IMG/VR virus record: IMGVR_UViG_3300049044_000033
Coordinates: 350,796-414,795 of that record
Source of the DNA: a virus
Lineage: Duplodnaviria > Heunggongvirae > Uroviricota > Caudoviricetes
DNA length: 64,000 nucleotides
Reading direction: 5' to 3' (one strand)
Position numbers and translations under genes: made by a program. Within the stretch, counting starts at the first letter, position 1. Each line of letters starts with the position of its first letter. Below are positions 38,005 to 50,330 of the stretch, piece after piece. The notes under the pieces were generated by a model, which made no database searches, was not told the DNA's origin, and saw only the letters and a program-made list of their open reading frames with translations.

Positions 38005-39276
38005 TTAATGATACTTAAAGTTTTTAATGGAGAGCTTATCACCCTCAAATAAGATATCTGCCGAGGTCAAACGACCACCTTTGCCCGAACCAGTATCCAT
38101 GAAATAGGCTTCGCCACCCATGGCTCCTTGGACAACTAGTGGCTTGAAGGTATTCCTTATGTCGTGACCTACCATGACGCGTTTTCCCTGAGGAATCCTA
38201 TCTACCCATTCGTAGATGCGTGTAGGGTATCCATCAGCTCTCGGAGGAGCATTATTATCCACTTCTCCGAATAGCGCCATCGTCTCAAAACGACCATGTA
38301 GACGTGGGCTATTGATACTGAACATTTCAGGTTCAGCAGCGCCATGAGTGAAGAGTGTTTCTCCAATAATCCAGTGATGCCGAGAGAAACCCATCAGGGA
38401 CTTGAACTTGACTTCAAACTTCCTACGTGCATCCAGGCTCAATGACTCGATAGCATTGGTAGTAACCTTGTTACCATCTGACAGCCTAACCCTAACATCA
38501 TTAAAACGGACCTGTTCTAACCAGCGTTCAATCTTACGTTCATGGTTACCTATTAGACAGATACCACGACCGCGAGTAACAATATTGTAGACGTGATCAA
38601 CACAATCGAGGCTATTGGGCCCGTAATCCACAACATCACCCAGGAATACACAGAACAGATTCCTCTGAGTTGCCCACTCGGTAGCGTTCTTGAGAGGTTC
38701 AACCATTCCATGAACGTCTCCTACTACCATCACGCCTCGATAACCTTTTGCCTCAATGGCTTCTTTCAGCTGGAAGTTGGTCAGCTTTTCAACAACGTCG
38801 AAGTCTTCCTGTCTTGTGTCAATCACGTTAGCAACGTGGTCACCGCGTATAATATCTCTCTCGTTGGCGCGGAAGATCTGATCATGCTTTGTAATAGCAC
38901 CAGTGGCTCCTGCCCTCCAGCTTGTCTTACTCGATTGGAGTTTATTATCTAACTCTTGATTACAGACCACGTAGAAGATAGGCACTCCTACCCTTAAAGC
39001 AATATCAGCTAGGCCGAGACGATCTTTCTTTCGCAAGTTAGTAGCATCTACGACTACCCTCTCACCTAACTCAAGCTTCATTTGAGTTCTTCGGTGTATT
39101 TCCTTGAACACAATATCGTTGATATCAAGGCGCTGATAGTCTCCCAAGATCTCGAATCGAATTTCTTCACTCCCTAGGATCTCGTAGGAAGAAAACTTCT
39201 GATTTGCCCAGTAGGTTTTACCGCCATTGGCAGGACCGACCATGATAACCAGACTGTGGAGTGGAATTTTTTTCAT
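38005..39276 (-). CDS. polynucleotide kinase-phosphatase (Pnkp; kinase plus metallophosphatase, no ligase domain)
   Basis: GPANGGKT P-loop, VVDATNL; GDVHG, GDVVDYGP, GNHE, VGHD, DTG. Confidence 0.85.
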   Translation of the reverse strand: MKKIPLHSLVIMVGPANGGKTYWANQKFSSYEILGSEEIRFEILGDYQRLDINDIVFKEIHRRTQMKLELGERVVVDATNLRKKDRLGLADIALRVGVPIFYVVCNQELDNKLQSSKTSWRAGATGAITKHDQIFRANERDIIRGDHVANVIDTRQEDFDVVEKLTNFQLKEAIEAKGYRGVMVVGDVHGMVEPLKNATEWATQRNLFCVFLGDVVDYGPNSLDCVDHVYNIVTRGRGICLIGNHERKIERWLEQVRFNDVRVRLSDGNKVTTNAIESLSLDARRKFEVKFKSLMGFSRHHWIIGETLFTHGAAEPEMFSINSPRLHGRFETMALFGEVDNNAPPRADGYPTRIYEWVDRIPQGKRVMVGHDIRNTFKPLVVQGAMGGEAYFMDTGSGKGGRLTSADILFEGDKLSIKNFKYH

Positions 39277-40932: not shown

Positions 40933-41391
40933 TCACTCCACTGCGCTAAAACGCTTGGTGATCTGATGTGCCTCTTCTCTGGTACAAGGACCAATACCGA
41001 GGGCAGTGACGATGGGTTGACCATCGAACGCCGTTCCAGGGATAACGTGGTTCTTGTCTTCGATGAGGGAGGTGATCAGACCCGCAGCCTCAGCTTCTTC
41101 GAACGCACGCCTGAGGGCGTTTTCGTTCTTAGCTTTGAGGATAACTTGGGTGCCGATGAAGTCTGGGCCCTGATAAACACGCAGGAGTTCAGGATCGCGC
41201 CGACTTGCTAGGAGGACACAATTCTTGGCCGCATGACAAGCCTGGCTTGCCAACTTACCTGGCTTCATATCCAGGTCGCCACGAATTATGCTATAAACGC
41301 GAAGCTTTTCAGAGGCAGCTTCGAAGGCCTCATAGTCGTTGTCGTTATCAAAACGAGCAGCGGCTTCCTACAAGAACGAGTTACTGAGCAT
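40933..41391 (-). CDS. pth2: peptidyl-tRNA hydrolase type 2 (Pth2) with in-frame amber codon at codon 8 (TAG, 41370-41368)
   Basis: ATG CTC AGT AAC TCG TTC TTG TAG GAA GCC..., then KLRVYSIIRGDLDMKPGKLASQACHA...VILKA...IED...VTALGIGP; AAGGA RBS before ATG 41391; no ATG/GTG/TTG between the TAG and the first beta strand. Confidence 0.85.
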
Positions 41392-41431
41392 TTGCTTTCC
41401 TTTCTATTTGCGTCCAACATCGGACGTCCTC

Positions 41432-41459
41432 AACATATGACACATCTAGGATGTGTCAA
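41432..41459 (-). promoter_or_regulatory. sigma70-type promoter (TTGACA-N16-TATGTT) overlapped by a perfect 9-bp inverted repeat
   Basis: TGACACATC-TAG-GATGTGTCA at 41438-41458; upstream of pth2. Confidence 0.6.
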
Positions 41460-41467
41460 CACTTTTC

Positions 41468-41800
41468 TTATCTCCACCTCAATTTAAACATCATCGCATC
41501 TCGGGGAGATTCAAAAACCACGCCAACACTATAAGAACAACCGGTTTCCCAACCTACCTTCTTCCAAACGCCGTGCTTGACATTCTCAGAACACCATTCC
41601 TCAACAGGAATAAAGGTGTTCCAAGTAAAACCTAGCATCTTTACAAGATACCAGCCTGGGAATTGGTTGTTGATGGTGGCCACGAAATCACCGTCTTCCC
41701 ATTCGTCTTCTTCGAATAGGGCAGAGTTTTCGGGTTCTTCGGAAATTTGGCCGTCATGGGAATCGAAATCATCCCACAGCCATGTTACTTCACTTGTCAT
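41468..41800 (-). CDS. small protein, 'AxxFKL' family
   Basis: EWCSEN...W...VVFESPRDAMMFKLRW. Confidence 0.8.
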   Translation of the reverse strand: MTSEVTWLWDDFDSHDGQISEEPENSALFEEDEWEDGDFVATINNQFPGWYLVKMLGFTWNTFIPVEEWCSENVKHGVWKKVGWETGCSYSVGVVFESPRDAMMFKLRWR

Positions 41801-41921
41801 ATAATCCTACTGTCTATTAAGCTTTGATTGCCTAACAGTGGAGGAGGGCCTCTTTGGACCTAGTGATGCTTATTCGTGTTCATGTAACTACTTATAAGGC
41901 ACTAGGTCCCTAGAGTCAAAA

Positions 41922-42572
41922 TTAAAGTTTGCTGCCCATTCGAGCATAAATCCAGTTCTTTTCCTCAGTGGTAATATCGAACTTCACGTTGGGATATTTT
42001 GCCTGGATCTTGCTAACGATCTGCTTTATCTGCTGACCGCTCTCATGAGTCAAAACCTGCCAGTCGTAATCTTCTTCATCTTCTTCACCTTCGGGATTCT
42101 CCCATGAACCCCAATCTCGAACTTCGAATGAATCAGATGATGAACGAAACTCTGAATACCTATTCGCAGTCTGTTTGAACGCTGACAATAGTTCAGAAGT
42201 TGCCTTGGAAATTTCTTCCGGAGTAGCTTTAGCAGTAGGCTCACCTGCACGAACCGGTTCTTCTTGCTTATTAGCAGATGTGCCTTTAGGCTTTTCAGCA
42301 ACCTTGCCGAAGCCATAAGTGACTGCACCACGACCCGCAACGTTACTAGCATCGGTGGTTTCCCACATGCCAACAACATTACCCTGTTGATCAATGATGT
42401 GGTAGACCCCAAGAGTAAAGCCCATCTTGGAACCCTTACTTTGAACTAGCTTGGATTCATGGTCTGATTCACCCCAAACACTATATATGGCTTTCTTCAA
42501 GCTTGGGCGATCAGTATAGGTTGCGTTAATGAACTTTGGTTCATTCGCCTCGAAAATTTCATGAGCTCGCAT
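41922..42572 (-). CDS. putative late/virion-internal protein
   Basis: MRAHEIFEA N-terminus, own late promoter, AAAGGAG RBS. Confidence 0.65.
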   Translation of the reverse strand: MRAHEIFEANEPKFINATYTDRPSLKKAIYSVWGESDHESKLVQSKGSKMGFTLGVYHIIDQQGNVVGMWETTDASNVAGRGAVTYGFGKVAEKPKGTSANKQEEPVRAGEPTAKATPEEISKATSELLSAFKQTANRYSEFRSSSDSFEVRDWGSWENPEGEEDEEDYDWQVLTHESGQQIKQIVSKIQAKYPNVKFDITTEEKNWIYARMGSKL

Positions 42573-42593
42573 ATTAGGCTCCTTTCTCTGGCC

Positions 42594-42601
42594 TATTTAT
42601 T
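42594..42601 (-). promoter_or_regulatory. putative late promoter AATAAATA
   Basis: TAAATA core 21 nt upstream of ATG 42572. Confidence 0.6.
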
Positions 42602-43040
42602 CAAGCAATCCACGGTCAAAGCATTCATTCAAAACGCCTCGATAAACGCGCATATTTGGCCGATAGGGACCGCGCCCGAAATACTTTGCGTCGTCCCCGT
42701 TAAGGGCCTTCTCAAGCGCCGCAGCAACCGCCGCGCTCCGACATTGCCCCATAAGACAATGAACGTATATGACGCTCGTTCCCGCTTTATTCATGTCTTC
42801 ATAGAAGTCCAAAATAGTCTTCGCATGGGAATCGTCAAACAAGATTCGAGTCTCATTCTCCGGCTCGCCGTTCTTGTATGCATCAATATCGTGGAACTTG
42901 AGATTGAGACGACCCTGAAGGAATTCATTCTCATGAACCTCAGGGAAGTCACCTTTCTCACAGATGCTGATCAGCGCCCAAGGCTTCTCTGGTGGATTAG
43001 CGGCCATCATAGTGGCCCGGCTATAGACTACAAACTTCAT
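42597..43040 (-). CDS. protein-tyrosine/dual-specificity phosphatase-like protein
   Basis: ISI, L.FHD, VHCLMGQCRSAAVA (CX5R), PN..VY; probable start ATG 43040. Confidence 0.85.
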   Translation of the reverse strand: MKFVVYSRATMMAANPPEKPWALISICEKGDFPEVHENEFLQGRLNLKFHDIDAYKNGEPENETRILFDDSHAKTILDFYEDMNKAGTSVIYVHCLMGQCRSAAVAAALEKALNGDDAKYFGRGPYRPNMRVYRGVLNECFDRGLLE

Positions 43041-43071
43041 ATCCAGAGCTTTACTGGTTATTAGGCCTGTG

Positions 43072-43887
43072 TCAAGCTTCGGACCAAATATCCAGGGCAA
43101 GATCTTCGCGTTGCGCTTGCTGCCAGTTATAGACGCAACGGTCAAGACCAAGGGCAATTTCGAGCACAAGTGCGTCTTTCTCGATTAGACCTTTCTTGCC
43201 CTGGAAGCGAAGCTTCTCGGGGAAATCAGTCCGCTTGCTGATGCTGCAGACTTCCATCCACTTGTCGCCATTGTAGACTTCAACGTCCATCGTGCGAAGT
43301 GAATAAGCGGGAAGGCGGTCTGACTCTACTAGACGAGTGGGCAGGTGAACCATGCTAGCAATCATCTTGCGAACCGGTTCAAGCATTGCTTCCTGATAAT
43401 CATCAGCGGTATCTGCACTGTAGACGCACTGGAATTCCTGCTGGTAGAACTCCTTAAGGCGCATGTGCTTCGTGGGCTGCACGATTTCCCGACGGAAGCT
43501 CTTGCCCGCCTGCCAAACCACGAAGGGCGGCTGAACGCCCGTATGACTATTGAGCAGGTATTGCGCGTAGGAGTAGCTGCCAGGTGTGGTCTCAGGACGC
43601 AGGGCGAGGGCACGAGGAGCAGGACGAGTGCCAGCTTGGATCTCTGTCAGTTCTTCCAACGGCACAACAGAGTTCTGTTCCCAGATATCCTGACCGGTAT
43701 AGTTGACGTTCAGAAGATCTCGCGGTGTAAGCAGCGGTGCTTCGATGAAGTGGAAAGCCCAACGAGGATTGATAGCCAGCAATTGGCTTTGAACCTCACG
43801 AGCAAAGAAATCCCGGAAGGTTTCACGAAGCCTGATCTCCTGCTCATTCCAAAAGACCAAGCCATTAATTTCGTAGGGATTCTGCAT
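43072..43887 (-). CDS. minimal class II aminoacyl-tRNA synthetase catalytic domain, GlyRS(alpha2)-like, without anticodon-binding domain
   Basis: Motif 1 P (IEAPLLTP), LRPETT, motif 2 GKSFRRE...RLKEFYQQEF, EVCSISKRTDF, motif 3 VLEIALGLDR; ends about 20 aa after motif 3. Confidence 0.85.
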   Translation of the reverse strand: MQNPYEINGLVFWNEQEIRLRETFRDFFAREVQSQLLAINPRWAFHFIEAPLLTPRDLLNVNYTGQDIWEQNSVVPLEELTEIQAGTRPAPRALALRPETTPGSYSYAQYLLNSHTGVQPPFVVWQAGKSFRREIVQPTKHMRLKEFYQQEFQCVYSADTADDYQEAMLEPVRKMIASMVHLPTRLVESDRLPAYSLRTMDVEVYNGDKWMEVCSISKRTDFPEKLRFQGKKGLIEKDALVLEIALGLDRCVYNWQQAQREDLALDIWSEA

Positions 43888-44024
43888 CAGACATAGCCTT
43901 TAAGCAATGAGGTGAAAAGAAGAGACAACATGGCAACTACAAAGAGCAGGAAGAGTGCTCCGGCCCAAGGAAGACCTTTAGTTTCAGTTCTTAACTTAGG
44001 CGGTTCAGGTCTTTCGGGCATCAT
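43887..44024 (-). CDS. 45-aa single-TM membrane protein (not in the ORF track)
   Basis: MMPERPEPPKLRTETKGLPWAGALFLLFVVAMLSLLFTSLLKGYV*; its TGA overlaps the synthetase ATG (TGATG). Confidence 0.65.
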   Translation of the reverse strand: MMPERPEPPKLRTETKGLPWAGALFLLFVVAMLSLLFTSLLKGYV

Positions 44025-44037
44025 GTTTTCTCGTATT

Positions 44038-44113
44038 TGGCGCGCCTAGCGAGGCTCGAACTCGCGACCCGCAGATTTAGAGTCTGCTGCTCTACCAACT
44101 GAGCTATAAGCGC
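44038..44113 (-). tRNA. tRNA with CUA anticodon (amber suppressor), CCA encoded
   Basis: GCGCTTA TA GCTC AGTTGGTA GAGC A GCAGA CT-CTA-AA TCTGC GGGTC GCGAG TTCGAGC CTCGC TAGGCGC G CCA; 76 nt, all stems pair; anticodon at 44080-44078. Confidence 0.95.
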
Positions 44114-44124
44114 ATTCAACCTTT

Positions 44125-44583
44125 TTAGGACTTATTTTCCAGCTTGTCAAGTCGCTCGACGATTTGACGAAGCAATTCTGTTTGCTCCCGATCGTTTTCT
44201 TTGAGGTGTTCCTGCTCTTCATGTGTGAAGGCGTCGCTGTTAACGATCAGCTGAGCAGAGAACTTGGCGACCAGAAGTGGCTGGATATAGAATACACTGA
44301 AGAACATAAATGCCCCGCCAACGAGCTTGCTGATCAACTTTGTGGGATAGAGGTCACCATATCCAACAGTAGTCGAGGTAACAGTTGCCCACCAGAAGCT
44401 ATTGGTGAGGTCCTTGTCTTCAACAATACTGAAGGTCACTGCCGCGACGGTCATAGCAGAGATAAAGGTTAGAATGAGCGGGAGGGCTTTATTGGCCATC
44501 TTCTGTATGAAGTTAAGTTCCTGGCCTGCCCCTGCAGCGGCCTTTAGAAAGTCGTTACCTGCCCGTTCGATCTGTTTACGCAT
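44125..44583 (-). CDS. two-TM potassium channel (KcsA-like)
   Basis: WWATVTSTTVGYGDLYP selectivity filter between two TM helices; AGGAGG RBS before ATG 44583. Confidence 0.9.
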   Translation of the reverse strand: MRKQIERAGNDFLKAAAGAGQELNFIQKMANKALPLILTFISAMTVAAVTFSIVEDKDLTNSFWWATVTSTTVGYGDLYPTKLISKLVGGAFMFFSVFYIQPLLVAKFSAQLIVNSDAFTHEEQEHLKENDREQTELLRQIVERLDKLENKS

Positions 44584-44603
44584 GAATGTTCCTCCTTGCA
44601 CTC

Positions 44604-44631
44604 TCGATAACACAGGAGAACAATTTGTCAA
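44604..44631 (-). promoter_or_regulatory. sigma70-type promoter for the K-channel/tRNA/synthetase operon
   Basis: TTGACA at 44631-44626, 16-nt spacer, TATCGA; directly after a hairpin. Confidence 0.5.
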
Positions 44632-45291: not shown

Positions 45292-46635
45292 TTACGCCTT
45301 CTTCCATTCTGTGCCGTGGATTCCATCGGCAAGTGTGATACCAGCGTCTGCAAGTTGCTGGCGAATTTCATCTGCTCGTGCGTAGTCTTTGTTCCTACGC
45401 GCTGCTTGACGTTCGCTTATTAGTTGTTCAACCCACTCTTTGTCAACACCAAAGGTGCGCCATTGGTGAGGAGTTTGGTTAAACAATCCGAGAAGCTGCC
45501 CACCCCTAATAAACTTTGCCTTCGCTGGCGCCCCTCCGCCATGCTCAAGATCATCAGCTAACTCATGCAGAGCAGAGAGTGCAGCCGTGGTATTGAGGTC
45601 GTTGGATAGAGCTTCTAAGACATTCTCTGGTGCATCAACGGCTTCTGGGTAGTTGAGTTCGTCGAACCTCCACAAGACATTATAGAGACGATCTAGCGCA
45701 CGATGAGCACTAGCAAGCTTCTCCATAGTAAAGTCCATAGGACTGCGATAGTGTGATTGCAGGAAGAGATAGCGAACCGATTCGCCAGGATATTGGTCCA
45801 ATAGGTCTCGGAGCAAAATCACGTTGCCTCGACTCTTGCTCATCTTCTCACTGCCTACAGTCAAGAGACCATTGTGGAGCCAATATTTGGCCAGAGGTTG
45901 ACCAGTCACGCACTGACTTTGGGCACATTCTGCATCGTGGTGTGGGAACCTGAGATCCTGTCCACCTCCATGAATATCAATAGTAGATCCACCATAAAGG
46001 CTGTAGATCATAGCTGAACATTCAATGTGCCATCCGGGACGTCCGTGACCCCAAGGTGAAAACCATTTAGGCTCTCCTTCCTTAGCGGGCTTCCAGAGAA
46101 CAAAGTCCCTTGGATCCTTTTTCTTTGGATTCACCTCCACCCGAGCGCCACTATTCCAATGAGTATGGTTAGCCAGACCAGGATGAGGATTACTGGGAAC
46201 GTGGAAGAACACCTCTCCGTCGACTTCATAAGCGTGACCATCGTCTATGAGTTTATGGATGAGAATGATCATACTCGAGACATAATCCGTGGCTTTAGGC
46301 TCCATGTAGGGAGACAAGCAGCACAAATCTTCGAGATCCTGATGATAAGCAATCGTTGCAGTATCAGTGATCTGACTGATCGGTACACCTCGCTCAATCG
46401 AGGCAGTAATAATCTTATCATCAATATCAGTGATATTGCGGGCGTATCGAACCGACTCAGGATAGGTGTATTCGAGAAGCCTATAAAGCTGGTCAAACAC
46501 GATAGCCGGACGAGCATTCCCTATGTGGGCTGGACCATACACAGTTGGTCCGCAGACATACATTGTGATAAGACGATCATCACGAGGGATGAACTCTTCA
46601 AGGCTTCGTGTCTGACTATTGTGTAGCTTGATCAT
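45292..46635 (-). CDS. cysS: cysteinyl-tRNA synthetase
   Basis: MYVCGPTVY, HIGN, NITDIDDKI, DFVLWK, GRPGWHIECS, DIHGGGQDLRFPHH, KMSKS, intact anticodon domain. Confidence 0.95.
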   Translation of the reverse strand: MIKLHNSQTRSLEEFIPRDDRLITMYVCGPTVYGPAHIGNARPAIVFDQLYRLLEYTYPESVRYARNITDIDDKIITASIERGVPISQITDTATIAYHQDLEDLCCLSPYMEPKATDYVSSMIILIHKLIDDGHAYEVDGEVFFHVPSNPHPGLANHTHWNSGARVEVNPKKKDPRDFVLWKPAKEGEPKWFSPWGHGRPGWHIECSAMIYSLYGGSTIDIHGGGQDLRFPHHDAECAQSQCVTGQPLAKYWLHNGLLTVGSEKMSKSRGNVILLRDLLDQYPGESVRYLFLQSHYRSPMDFTMEKLASAHRALDRLYNVLWRFDELNYPEAVDAPENVLEALSNDLNTTAALSALHELADDLEHGGGAPAKAKFIRGGQLLGLFNQTPHQWRTFGVDKEWVEQLISERQAARRNKDYARADEIRQQLADAGITLADGIHGTEWKKA

Positions 46636-47379: not shown

Positions 47380-48216
47380 TTAGACCAAGTCCAAACCGGC
47401 CCACTCTCTAGCAGCCGCTCGACTAACTCCCTCAACGACTTTCGCAAGGTCACAAGCATAGAGTCCCGCGCAGCTAAATCCGTTGAGTTCGACAATCTTC
47501 GGCCCTTCTTCTGTCAACGCAACGTCGCAGGTGTATGCGACGTCTACTTGCCATCCCTGTTTAGCTACTTTCTCGGCTAGAGTAAAGCACTCTTCTGGCC
47601 AGTCGCGTCGGATATCCAGCTTGCCGTCCCAGCGGTATTCTGAACCTGTAATCACTTCCTTGTCAGCGATCACAAAACGAAACTCGCCTTGTATATCCTG
47701 GCACTGGTTGACCAGAATCAAAGTATCATCGACCACACTACTGGTCTGATCCAGAGAGGATATGTCATGATCAATCGTACCAAACTTGACCTTATGACCC
47801 GCGAAGGTTTTGAGGCCACTATTAGGGCGAATGAATAGCTCTCCTGCATCGAAATTGTAGAACAACTCTCGGGCACGATGCTTAAACATCGCCCAGGTCA
47901 TCATATTGGCATTTCGATTCATGAACCAATCGAGTGGGAGATTGCTCATGTAGGAAGAGGCTTGGGTTCTAGCATTCACACCTAAGGCACCAGGCTGATA
48001 CTGGTGGGATTCTACATATCGGGTGAATTCATGTGACCCGTAGAGAACCACACATTTGTCGTTGGCAACCAGGGGATCACTGTAGGTGCCGTCAGGGTGA
48101 CGATCAACAAAGATTGCTTCGTGACCGGCCTCGCGGACGTAGTGGTCAATGGTATGGCGATCATATGAGAGTTTCTCAAGAATGCCGCGGTCTAAGAGCC
48201 AGATAATAGGAACCAT
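47380..48216 (-). CDS. ATP-grasp domain protein (R2K/DUF4343-like)
   Basis: LFIRPNSGLKTFAG, EFRFVI, DVA, IVELNGFSCAGLY. Confidence 0.8.
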   Translation of the reverse strand: MVPIIWLLDRGILEKLSYDRHTIDHYVREAGHEAIFVDRHPDGTYSDPLVANDKCVVLYGSHEFTRYVESHQYQPGALGVNARTQASSYMSNLPLDWFMNRNANMMTWAMFKHRARELFYNFDAGELFIRPNSGLKTFAGHKVKFGTIDHDISSLDQTSSVVDDTLILVNQCQDIQGEFRFVIADKEVITGSEYRWDGKLDIRRDWPEECFTLAEKVAKQGWQVDVAYTCDVALTEEGPKIVELNGFSCAGLYACDLAKVVEGVSRAAAREWAGLDLV

Positions 48217-49127: not shown

Positions 49128-50330
49128 TTACTCCTGCCCCTTAGCATCCCTCAAGTCATACCAGGACAACCCGCCCCATAGATGCCTCACAGAATCTACT
49201 CGGCTTTGGCTTGCCAGTTTGTTACCCACGAACTTGACAAGGTATTCATAGAGAGCAGCCTCTCCCTCTTCTAAGCGATCCCACATCCAGAACTTGATGC
49301 CATTCAGAATATCATCCTTGCCCTGCAGGTTCTTTTCGGCGAACTTCTTCTTGCTTCCGTTGAAGTTGTCGAAATCGGCTTGAACTTCCCAGTAGAGATC
49401 ACTTGCGAGCTTCTTCAAACCTGTGAAGATAGTCATGCCAAACTCGTCAGCCTTGGCAACTAGATCTTCAGGTAAGAAAGGCTTGGCATCATCAAGTTTC
49501 TCGTCAATGATCAACCGGATGACATCCTTCTCAAGAGTCATGTGCTCCAGAGTCTTGTGGATCTGGCAATACCATTCACCCTTGAGCTTGCGAGCATGTC
49601 CGTTAATGTCACGCCATACATCGCCTTCTGCACCCTCGAGGGCACGGATTTCCTCAAGGAGTTCCTGGTCAAAACCAGTCATCTCATAGCTGGCATAGAC
49701 TAGAGGGATATCATAGGCTTCTGCCTCTTCCTTCATTTCCTCATAGGTCTTATATTCACCGGTGATGTTTTCACGAATAGCCGTTAAGATCAACTTGGAA
49801 TCAGGATAGTCGATAACAATCCTCTGCTCGCGAGAGCACCATTCAAAGATAGGTGTCCAGCCCTGGCTCATCCAATACTTTGCGAACTCGTGATAGTTGA
49901 CCTTGTCCTTAGTGAATCGGTCAACAGGCTTTGCCACATCAGTCAAACCCATCTTCGTAGCCCAACGAACTTCTCCATTGATCAACAGAGGAGTGATCAT
50001 TGAACCATCAAGCTTTTCGAAGCGACGATAAGGGATTGACCAGTCAATGTTCTGCGGCAAAGTCTCGGGGCGTTCTCCCAAGTTGAAGAACTTGTGATAC
50101 TTGCGTGAGATGATCTCACCCGTCGATGTGCGGAACGTAACACCACGACACTCGCGCAGAATTGCCGTGCGCTCATCGGTCACCGGAGGGAAGGTATCAT
50201 CAAAGTTTACCGCATAGTTGATGATTGTGTAGTCGTGCTCTTCATTGACACGAATCACAAACTCTTCATGACCTTCGATGGCTTTGAGCACTTGGTCGAT
50301 ATGAGTGATGCGAGGAAACTGGTAAGTCAT
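49128..50330 (-). CDS. rnlA: RNA ligase 1 (T4 RnlA-like)
   Basis: ECRG, KFFNLGE, motif I EKLDGS, FEW....RIVIDY, EG, KLKGEWY. Confidence 0.9.
   Translation of the reverse strand: MTYQFPRITHIDQVLKAIEGHEEFVIRVNEEHDYTIINYAVNFDDTFPPVTDERTAILRECRGVTFRTSTGEIISRKYHKFFNLGERPETLPQNIDWSIPYRRFEKLDGSMITPLLINGEVRWATKMGLTDVAKPVDRFTKDKVNYHEFAKYWMSQGWTPIFEWCSREQRIVIDYPDSKLILTAIRENITGEYKTYEEMKEEAEAYDIPLVYASYEMTGFDQELLEEIRALEGAEGDVWRDINGHARKLKGEWYCQIHKTLEHMTLEKDVIRLIIDEKLDDAKPFLPEDLVAKADEFGMTIFTGLKKLASDLYWEVQADFDNFNGSKKKFAEKNLQGKDDILNGIKFWMWDRLEEGEAALYEYLVKFVGNKLASQSRVDSVRHLWGGLSWYDLRDAKGQE

What the first reader, a model, noticed from the sequence alone, without database searches (positions are those of the whole stretch)
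40933..44631. Candidate phage-encoded amber-decoding system: tRNA(CUA), a minimal GlyRS-like synthetase and an amber-gated Pth2 gene
Seen in sequence: (i) a fully paired 76-nt tRNA with CUA anticodon; (ii) 150 nt downstream in the same apparent operon, a 271-aa class II synthetase with only the catalytic core; (iii) 2.6 kb further on, a Pth2 gene with an in-frame TAG at codon 8; (iv) the window is otherwise standard code, and only 2 of the genes I checked stop on TAG. Established knowledge: G1-C72, C2-G71 and G3-C70, present here, are tRNA-Gly acceptor identity pairs. A synthetase lacking an anticodon domain must rely on acceptor-stem recognition, and anticodon-blind pairs such as PylRS/tRNA-Pyl suppress amber efficiently. 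Inference: this is a dedicated, possibly orthogonal aaRS/tRNA pair that acts as a translational switch for selected phage genes rather than a genome-wide recoding. It could also read through host UAG stops. If orthogonal, it would be useful for genetic-code expansion.
Basis: partly seen in the sequence, partly recalled or inferred. Interest (0 to 1): 0.95.

Follow-up and report, generated by a model that had tools for sequence, protein, structure and literature searches.

The report
Stop-codon-gated phage operon with suppressor tRNA
A jumbo phage that uses the normal genetic code carries its own UAG-reading tRNA and two nearby reading frames that can only be completed if UAG is read through, a design kept in dozens of relatives; whether the small synthetase-like enzyme next door charges that tRNA is still open.

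Summary
Observation confirmed. In this 462-kb standard-code jumbo phage the tRNA(CUA), a 271-aa GlyRS-like core and pth2 with TAG at codon 8 are real and conserved. In the phage Pth2 clade, 44 of 52 distinct genes have an early in-frame stop, in unrelated N-termini. All 26 suppressor tRNAs found within 5 kb match that stop. TGA replaces TAG at least twice, each time with a UCA suppressor (Atu_ph07 included). The best reading is a suppressor-tRNA-dependent readthrough switch (0.8). The dedicated orthogonal Gly pair is only weakly supported (about 0.25). For it: this G73 tRNA and the synthetase are present or absent together in the syntenic clade. Against it: the Gly acceptor pairs are not conserved (G3-C70 3/16, G73 16/16); 0 of 65 more distant synthetase loci have a suppressor nearby; 7 of 10 near-complete gated genomes lack the synthetase; and this phage has two further CUA tRNAs plus its own LysRS1. 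I found no paper on either module. This scan noted both before on other DNA. Nothing is tested experimentally.

The parts
44125..44583 (-). Small two-helix K-channel-like gene (PF07885), first gene of the tRNA/synthetase unit; a TTGACA hexamer lies at 44631-44626. Often but not always present in relatives.
44038..44113 (-). Amber suppressor tRNA(CUA), G73, short variable loop, encoded CCA
   Evidence: 16/16 syntenic loci
43887..44024 (-). 45-aa ORF between tRNA and synthetase, no homolog found in relatives' loci
43072..43887 (-). Stand-alone class IIa (alpha2 GlyRS-like) catalytic core without anticodon-binding domain; invariant E99, R132, E151, Y195, S215, S217, E243, A245
42597..43040 (-). 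Protein-tyrosine-phosphatase-like gene, syntenic in the clade
41922..42572 (-). 216-aa ORF (phrog_38558), not syntenic in relatives; probably unrelated
41797..41883 (-). Second amber gate: apparently leaderless leader, 7 sense codons, TAG (41860-41862), then Val-Gln-Arg-Gly-Pro-Pro-Pro; its TGA overlaps the next ATG; a predicted hairpin pairs the Pro codons with the next gene's Shine-Dalgarno
41468..41800 (-). Conserved 110-aa viral protein of unknown family, the likely target of the leader
41432..41459 (-). Sigma70-like promoter of pth2 (TTGACA-16-TATGTT) with a 9-bp palindrome over the spacer
   Evidence: similar sites upstream of pth2 in relatives
40933..41391 (-). pth2 with in-frame TAG at codon 8 (41368-41370); the readthrough product has 152 aa and the Pth2 fold
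45292..46635 (-). Full-length CysRS, upstream neighbour in the syntenic block

Best explanation
The locus is a stop-codon-readthrough switch in a standard-code jumbo phage. Phage-encoded suppressor tRNA competes with host RF1 at UAG. Without readthrough, ribosomes end pth2 after 7 residues and leave the leader before its Arg-Gly-Pro-Pro motif. With readthrough, full Pth2 is made, and ribosomes reach and stall on the RGPP motif, opening the hairpin over the ribosome-binding site of the 110-aa gene. Shown by comparison: conservation of both stops, translation of the pth2 N-terminus in that frame, and the stop-to-anticodon match. Inferred: actual readthrough, stalling, hairpin opening, and the purpose (Pth2 recycles peptidyl-tRNA dropped when termination is disturbed, a prfB-like feedback). 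The decoder may be the adjacent G73 tRNA or the A73 Lys-type CUA tRNA elsewhere in the genome, most simply charged by an ordinary host or phage synthetase. The GlyRS-like core is a separate, widespread phage enzyme for a small amino acid that rides in a cassette with the G73 tRNA in this clade.
For: Early in-frame stop in 44 of 52 clade members: 41 TAG, 3 TGA, never TAA. It sits at codons 3-10 of unrelated N-termini, e.g. Phosso codon 4 and G003 codon 3. The distant Pth2 genes shown have ordinary starts. 26/26 suppressor tRNAs within 5 kb match the stop. TGA arose at least twice on the tree, with UCA tRNAs in L115/L116 and in Atu_ph07 (PMC6102473). Codons 2-7 vary like the Pth2 core (0.36 synonymous vs 0.13 non-synonymous differences per codon; core 0.32 vs 0.12; 13 loci chosen for this N-terminus). 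The internal ATG loses the first strand. The leader TAG precedes an xPP motif in the close relatives, Phosso and G023, against 1 hit in 1.02 Mb of control loci. Two other in-frame TAG junctions of this genome are not conserved.
Against: No expression, ribosome-profiling or proteomic data. The leader hairpin is weak on its own (z = -1.5). The gated Pth2 keeps K46, H53 and D112, but has His-Ile/Val where canonical Pth2 has DAGxT; from memory that Thr is catalytic, so hydrolase activity is not certain. G001 has a gated pth2 and no CUA tRNA was found by my patterns. Four relatives put the domain in the +1 frame after TAG, with no amber tRNA nearby, so suppression is not the only way through.
Confidence: 0.8

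Rival explanations
1. One reading: the GlyRS-like core specifically charges the adjacent G73 tRNA(CUA), forming a dedicated and possibly orthogonal pair that drives the gates.
For: tRNA(CUA, G73) lies just upstream of the synthetase in 16/16 syntenic loci. Syntenic relatives without the synthetase (G023, G021, Atu_ph07) also lack this tRNA. Many relatives keep a second, A73 amber tRNA as well, suggesting two charging routes. The active site is intact and the family has no anticodon domain.
Against: An anticodon-blind enzyme needs acceptor identity, but pairs 1-7 vary (G3-C70 3/16, C2-G71 10/16), and G73 alone is shared with ten tRNAs of this phage. 0 of 65 distant loci have a suppressor within 4 kb; the nearest upstream tRNAs are Gly, Ala, Glu, Arg, Cys, Tyr, Val, His. 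7 of 10 near-complete gated genomes lack the enzyme, and two of them have G73 CUA tRNAs. The joint loss in G023 is one contiguous block of about 1.1 kb, so adjacency alone explains it.
Confidence: 0.25
2. The gates sense low release-factor activity (host defence, phage inhibition of RF1, or stress). The suppressor tRNA is a rescue device for ribosomes stalled at UAG rather than a timing switch.
For: Same layout as prfB autoregulation (own knowledge; PMC12421855 abstract). The +1-shifted TAG variants on megaplasmids have no amber tRNA nearby. G000 encodes no release factor.
Against: Readthrough still needs a decoder, and the stop follows the anticodon. No RF1 inhibitor was identified. This overlaps with the best explanation and differs mainly in the signal.
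Confidence: 0.3
3. pth2 is a pseudogene, or starts downstream; the TAG is neutral.
For: Databases call most homologs from the internal ATG, 110-111 aa. Four clade members have an in-frame ATG after the stop.
Against: The stop is kept across 40-90% protein divergence, the frame upstream of the internal ATG is under purifying selection, TAA never occurs, and the first strand would be lost.
Confidence: 0.04
4. The GlyRS-like core is not a tRNA synthetase; it aminoacylates a protein or carrier, or makes Ap4A, like EpmA or the amino acid:carrier-protein ligases.
For: Truncated class II paralogs with other acceptors are known (PMC9437257). 38 of 65 distant loci have no tRNA within 4 kb. The pocket differs from GlyRS (Ser of motif 3 to Ala; Gly/Ala to Ser/Ser).
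Against: 27 of 65 loci lie among tRNA genes, several within 15-35 nt of one; no carrier-protein neighbour was seen in the annotated loci.
Confidence: 0.3

Closest known systems
Stop-codon-recoded phages with suppressor tRNAs, including the Jade 'code change module' of suppressor tRNA, TrpRS and RF1 (Borges et al., 10.1101/2021.08.26.457843)
   Same: A phage suppressor tRNA lets in-frame stops act as an expression switch; a synthetase can sit next to the tRNA.
   Different: No genome-wide or block recoding here, only two conserved gates near N-termini; no release factor; the targets are Pth2 and an arrest-type leader, not structural or lysis genes.
prfB (RF2) autoregulation
   Same: An early in-frame stop makes a translation-quality factor depend on failure to terminate.
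   Different: In-frame suppression by a co-encoded tRNA instead of a +1 frameshift (except four relatives); the product is Pth2-like.
RAPP/RGPP arrest peptides (ApdA, ApdP, ApcA; PMC10951233, PMC12992588)
   Same: Short upstream ORF with RGPP/RAPP before a gene whose ribosome-binding site lies in a hairpin.
   Different: The motif lies behind a UAG, about 10 codons from the start, with no signal sequence; the input is readthrough rather than secretion.
Alpha2-type GlyRS (M. tuberculosis 8t5n, T. thermophilus 1ati)
   Same: Fold and motifs; the three pocket glutamates and the motif-2 Arg are kept.
   Different: No anticodon-binding or insertion domain; about 20% identity; remodelled pocket; far below the NCBIfam cut-off (61 vs 312 bits).
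PylRS/tRNA-Pyl
   Same: CUA anticodon, G73, anticodon-blind charging (own knowledge).
   Different: Canonical cloverleaf (ARAGORN's 'Pyl' label reflects only the anticodon); the enzyme is class IIa, not PheRS-like.
Orphan suppressor tRNAs of Atu_ph07 and XacN1 (PMC6102473; PMC5852040 listed)
   Same: A suppressor tRNA in a standard-code jumbo phage.
   Different: The Atu_ph07 paper names no target; here its pth2 carries the matching TGA at codon 7.

Membership tests
Pth2 (PF01981) | Profile match above cut-off and Pth2 fold | tested here: met
   73.6 bits vs 23; model matches bit1 and archaeal Pth2, TM 0.83-0.91 by target
Pth2 (PF01981) | Catalytic Lys, Asp, Thr (residues from memory) | tested here: inconclusive
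   K46 63/66 and D112 66/66 kept; the Thr of DAGxT is replaced by Ile/Val after a conserved His; I could not retrieve the paper
Pth2 (PF01981) | Peptidyl-tRNA hydrolysis | not testable with these tools
   needs an assay
Alpha2 GlyRS | Class IIa core with three pocket glutamates | tested here: met
   E99, E151, E243 invariant in 87 sequences; best PDB hits are GlyRS
Alpha2 GlyRS | C-terminal anticodon-binding domain | tested here: not met
   absent in the protein, in the genome, and in the best 150 representatives, all <=352 aa
Alpha2 GlyRS | Glycylates tRNA-Gly | not testable with these tools
   needs an assay
tRNA-Gly identity | G1-C72, C2-G71, G3-C70, U73 (bacteria), C35-C36 | tested here: not met
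   13/16, 10/16, 3/16; G73 16/16; anticodon CUA
tRNA-Pyl/PylRS | Non-canonical Pyl cloverleaf and a PylRS-type enzyme | tested here: not met
   canonical tRNA model matched 1-71, no Pyl family hit; the enzyme is GlyRS-like
TAG-recoded (code 15) phage | Many genes with in-frame TAG; coding gain under TAG-as-sense | tested here: not met
RAPP/RGPP arrest peptide | Conserved RAPP/RGPP motif upstream of a regulated gene | tested here: met
   RGPP/RAPP in the close clade, RSPP, RPPP or RDPP/HDPP in others
RAPP/RGPP arrest peptide | Ribosome stalling that raises downstream translation | not testable with these tools
   needs toeprinting; predicted hairpin only z = -1.5
Orthogonal aaRS/tRNA pair | Mutual specificity; tRNA not charged by host enzymes | tested here: inconclusive
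   linked in one clade, unlinked elsewhere; biochemistry not testable

The most novel reading that the evidence does not exclude
The 271-aa anticodon-less GlyRS-like core charges the adjacent G73 tRNA(CUA) with a small amino acid, using the discriminator and tRNA shape. It would be a natural minimal, phage-borne amber-decoding pair that feeds two readthrough-gated switches.
Probability: 0.25. Interest if true: 0.92.

Novelty: new variant of a known kind. Interest (0 to 1): 0.74.

Why it matters
It gives the 'orphan' suppressor tRNAs of standard-code jumbo phages concrete, conserved targets. It points to a natural stop-readthrough circuit that could be the step before full recoding. It is directly testable in two cultured phages that use different stops: Sinorhizobium phage Phosso (TAG, with the synthetase) and Agrobacterium phage Atu_ph07 (TGA, without it). 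It also shows that many phage pth2 genes are mis-annotated as 110-aa fragments. If the small synthetase charges tRNA at all, it would be among the smallest natural synthetases; if it is specific for the amber tRNA, it would be a candidate tool for genetic-code expansion.

Tried and rejected
Sequencing error or pseudogene: rejected. Genome-wide recoding: rejected. Gln as the ancestral residue at the stop: the database 'Q' in P0141 and P0147 is a TAG read under code 15, so it says nothing about the inserted residue. A separate anticodon-domain gene: none. A phage release factor: none in G000. Other TAG junctions noted by earlier readers (RHH-ParB, ligase): not conserved as amber gates; TAA or out of frame in relatives, and the ligase junction is kept only in G017. 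G73 as a mark of the synthetase's substrate genome-wide: not enriched; my pattern survey was not exhaustive. My first genome scan found only pth2 and missed the leaderless leader, so further short gates may exist. Paper searches for stop-gated pth2, for the mini-synthetase and for readthrough-gated arrest leaders found no description; subscription journals are mostly not covered. Searches failed on slips or a time-out. No complex was predicted.
Full report
Setting. The window lies in a complete 462,455-bp virus record with terminal repeats and 62 called tRNAs, three with CUA. The closest cultured relatives are Sinorhizobium phage Phosso (469 kb) and Agrobacterium phage Atu_ph07 (490 kb), so an alphaproteobacterial host is likely (inference). 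The code is standard: reading TAG as sense adds no special coding gain, and 21 of 385 likely genes end in TAG. Besides the small synthetase, the genome encodes CysRS, class I LysRS, GluRS and a 426-aa class II enzyme with a SerRS-type motif 3, and no release factor.

Observation. All three parts are at the stated coordinates. The order cysS, membrane ORF, K-channel (optional), tRNA(CUA), synthetase, phosphatase, 110-aa ORF, pth2 recurs in seven viral contigs, in Phosso and in six assembly loci. pth2 has its own promoter-like site, so the parts are probably not one transcript.

The pth2 gate. In the phage-type Pth2 clade (52 distinct sequences, support 100/96), 41 have ATG, a few codons, then TAG in frame; 3 have TGA; none has TAA. 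Four have the domain in the +1 frame after TAG, and four are ungated. The N-termini are unrelated and the stop lies at codons 3-10. The distant Pth2 genes shown start normally. Every suppressor tRNA found within 5 kb, 26 in all, matches the stop. The tree forces at least two switches to TGA. L115 and L116 have UCA tRNAs. Atu_ph07 has TGA at codon 7 and a UCA tRNA elsewhere in its genome, which PMC6102473 reported without a target. Codons 2-7 show the same synonymous excess as the enzyme core. Starting at the internal ATG would remove the first strand of a confident Pth2 model. Two other TAG junctions in this genome change to TAA or lose frame in relatives, which shows what a neutral junction looks like. 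Together this makes programmed readthrough the best reading, although no translation was observed.

A second gate. Following a lead from earlier notes of this scan, I found a leader at 41883-41797. It has a promoter-like site ending a few bases before the ATG, seven codons, TAG, then Arg-Gly-Pro-Pro-Pro, and a stop overlapping the start of the conserved 110-aa gene. It recurs with TAG and RAPP/RGPP in the close relatives and with related xPP motifs in Phosso, G023 and others; control loci gave one hit in 1.02 Mb. RAPP and RGPP are known EF-P-resistant arrest motifs (PMC12992588). The predicted fold pairs the Pro codons with the downstream ribosome-binding site, but only at z = -1.5. Stalling and unmasking are inferred.

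The tRNA. In 16 syntenic copies the D-arm, the anticodon and G73 are invariant, while all seven acceptor pairs vary: G1-C72 13, C2-G71 10, G3-C70 3. The Gly-like end in this window is therefore not a conserved identity. Three of the phage's four tRNA-Gly have U73. A second amber tRNA with A73 and the same acceptor end as the phage's tRNA-Lys lies elsewhere in this genome. A73 amber tRNAs also occur in the close relatives, and in three loci A73 and G73 versions stand side by side. The inserted amino acid cannot be read from sequence.

The synthetase. It folds as a class IIa core (pLDDT 94), closest to alpha2 GlyRS. The TxE-loop, motif-2 and motif-3 glutamates and the motif-2 arginine are invariant. 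The motif-3 Ser of GlyRS is Ala, and two nearby positions are Ser. A small amino acid is likely, glycine first (inference). The family is large (1,367 proteins; 115 clusters at E<=1e-30), always short, and mostly viral. Outside this clade, none of 65 loci has a suppressor within 4 kb, while 27 have ordinary tRNAs of many kinds. Seven of ten near-complete genomes with a gated pth2 lack the enzyme, and two of these have G73 amber tRNAs. In favour of pairing: G023, G021 and Atu_ph07 lack both the enzyme and the G73 tRNA while keeping the pth2 gate; G023 and G021 also keep the leader, and G023 has an A73 amber tRNA elsewhere. In G023, sister to Phosso, the missing piece is one block holding the tRNA, a 105-aa ORF and the synthetase, so physical linkage is enough to explain it. 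I put dedicated charging at about 0.25.

Mechanism. Shown by comparison: two conserved amber gates, a matching suppressor, and a standard code elsewhere. Inferred: suppressor versus RF1 decides the output; Pth2 recycles peptidyl-tRNA when termination is disturbed; the leader couples the 110-aa gene to the same signal. One caveat is that the clade replaces the Thr after the catalytic Asp (role of that Thr from memory), so the protein may have changed activity.

Novelty. The ingredients are known: suppressor-assisted recoding in phages (10.1101/2021.08.26.457843), prfB feedback and RAPP leaders. I found no paper on their combination or on this synthetase family. Earlier unchecked notes of this scan describe both modules on other DNA; the counts above are my own. 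This locus adds the two modules side by side, the cassette behaviour of the G73 tRNA, and a natural pair of cultured test phages. Verdict: new variant of a known kind, interest 0.74.

Noticed in passing
L182, L184, L185 (Mesorhizobium contig; Pseudomonas megaplasmids CP185741 and pPLMAXa) and phage L118, just upstream of the pth2 match at about 5001: ATG, a few codons, TAG, with the Pth2 domain in the +1 frame. L184 and L185 have an atypical tRNA(GCU) 200-300 nt upstream (L185: A-C mismatch opening a 9-nt loop; L184: no long Ser arm).
   Followed up: partly
G000 c153582-153658 and c185829-185902 (outside the window): Two further CUA tRNAs with A73; the first has the acceptor end of the phage's tRNA-Lys and is conserved in G016.
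   Followed up: partly
G000 about 124-126 kb, 58-60 kb, 161-163 kb: Phage class I LysRS, GluRS and a SerRS-like enzyme. LysRS1 is in the close clade but not in Phosso or Atu_ph07.
   Followed up: partly
G000 c117861-118169: A second, ungated Pth2-like gene, also present in relatives.
   Followed up: partly
window 41438-41458 and about 41415-41428: Operator-like palindrome over the pth2 promoter, and a small conserved hairpin just before its ribosome-binding site; similar elements in relatives and Atu_ph07.
   Followed up: no
L344:8750-9970; L045/L041 (G001): pth2 is split by an insertion shortly after the MxPGK motif in two relatives, probably an intron or homing element; the amber gate is kept.
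   Followed up: no
L299-L304: Seven of 25 genomes carry an RF-1-domain gene in open frames of only 185-204 aa (ArfB-like size), several alongside gated pth2.
   Followed up: no
L187:4770-5000: pth2 with two in-frame TAGs, directly after its CUA tRNA, in a Verrucomicrobiota bin contig.
   Followed up: no
window 38005-39276, 49128-50330, 47380-48216: PNK/metallophosphatase, and ORFs whose syntenic counterparts are annotated as RNA ligase and ATP-grasp proteins, flank the locus: an RNA-repair neighbourhood.
   Followed up: no
L486:172-2595 (-): Ligase-like N-terminal ORF in frame with ligA across two TAGs; the same in G017, not in four other relatives.
   Followed up: yes
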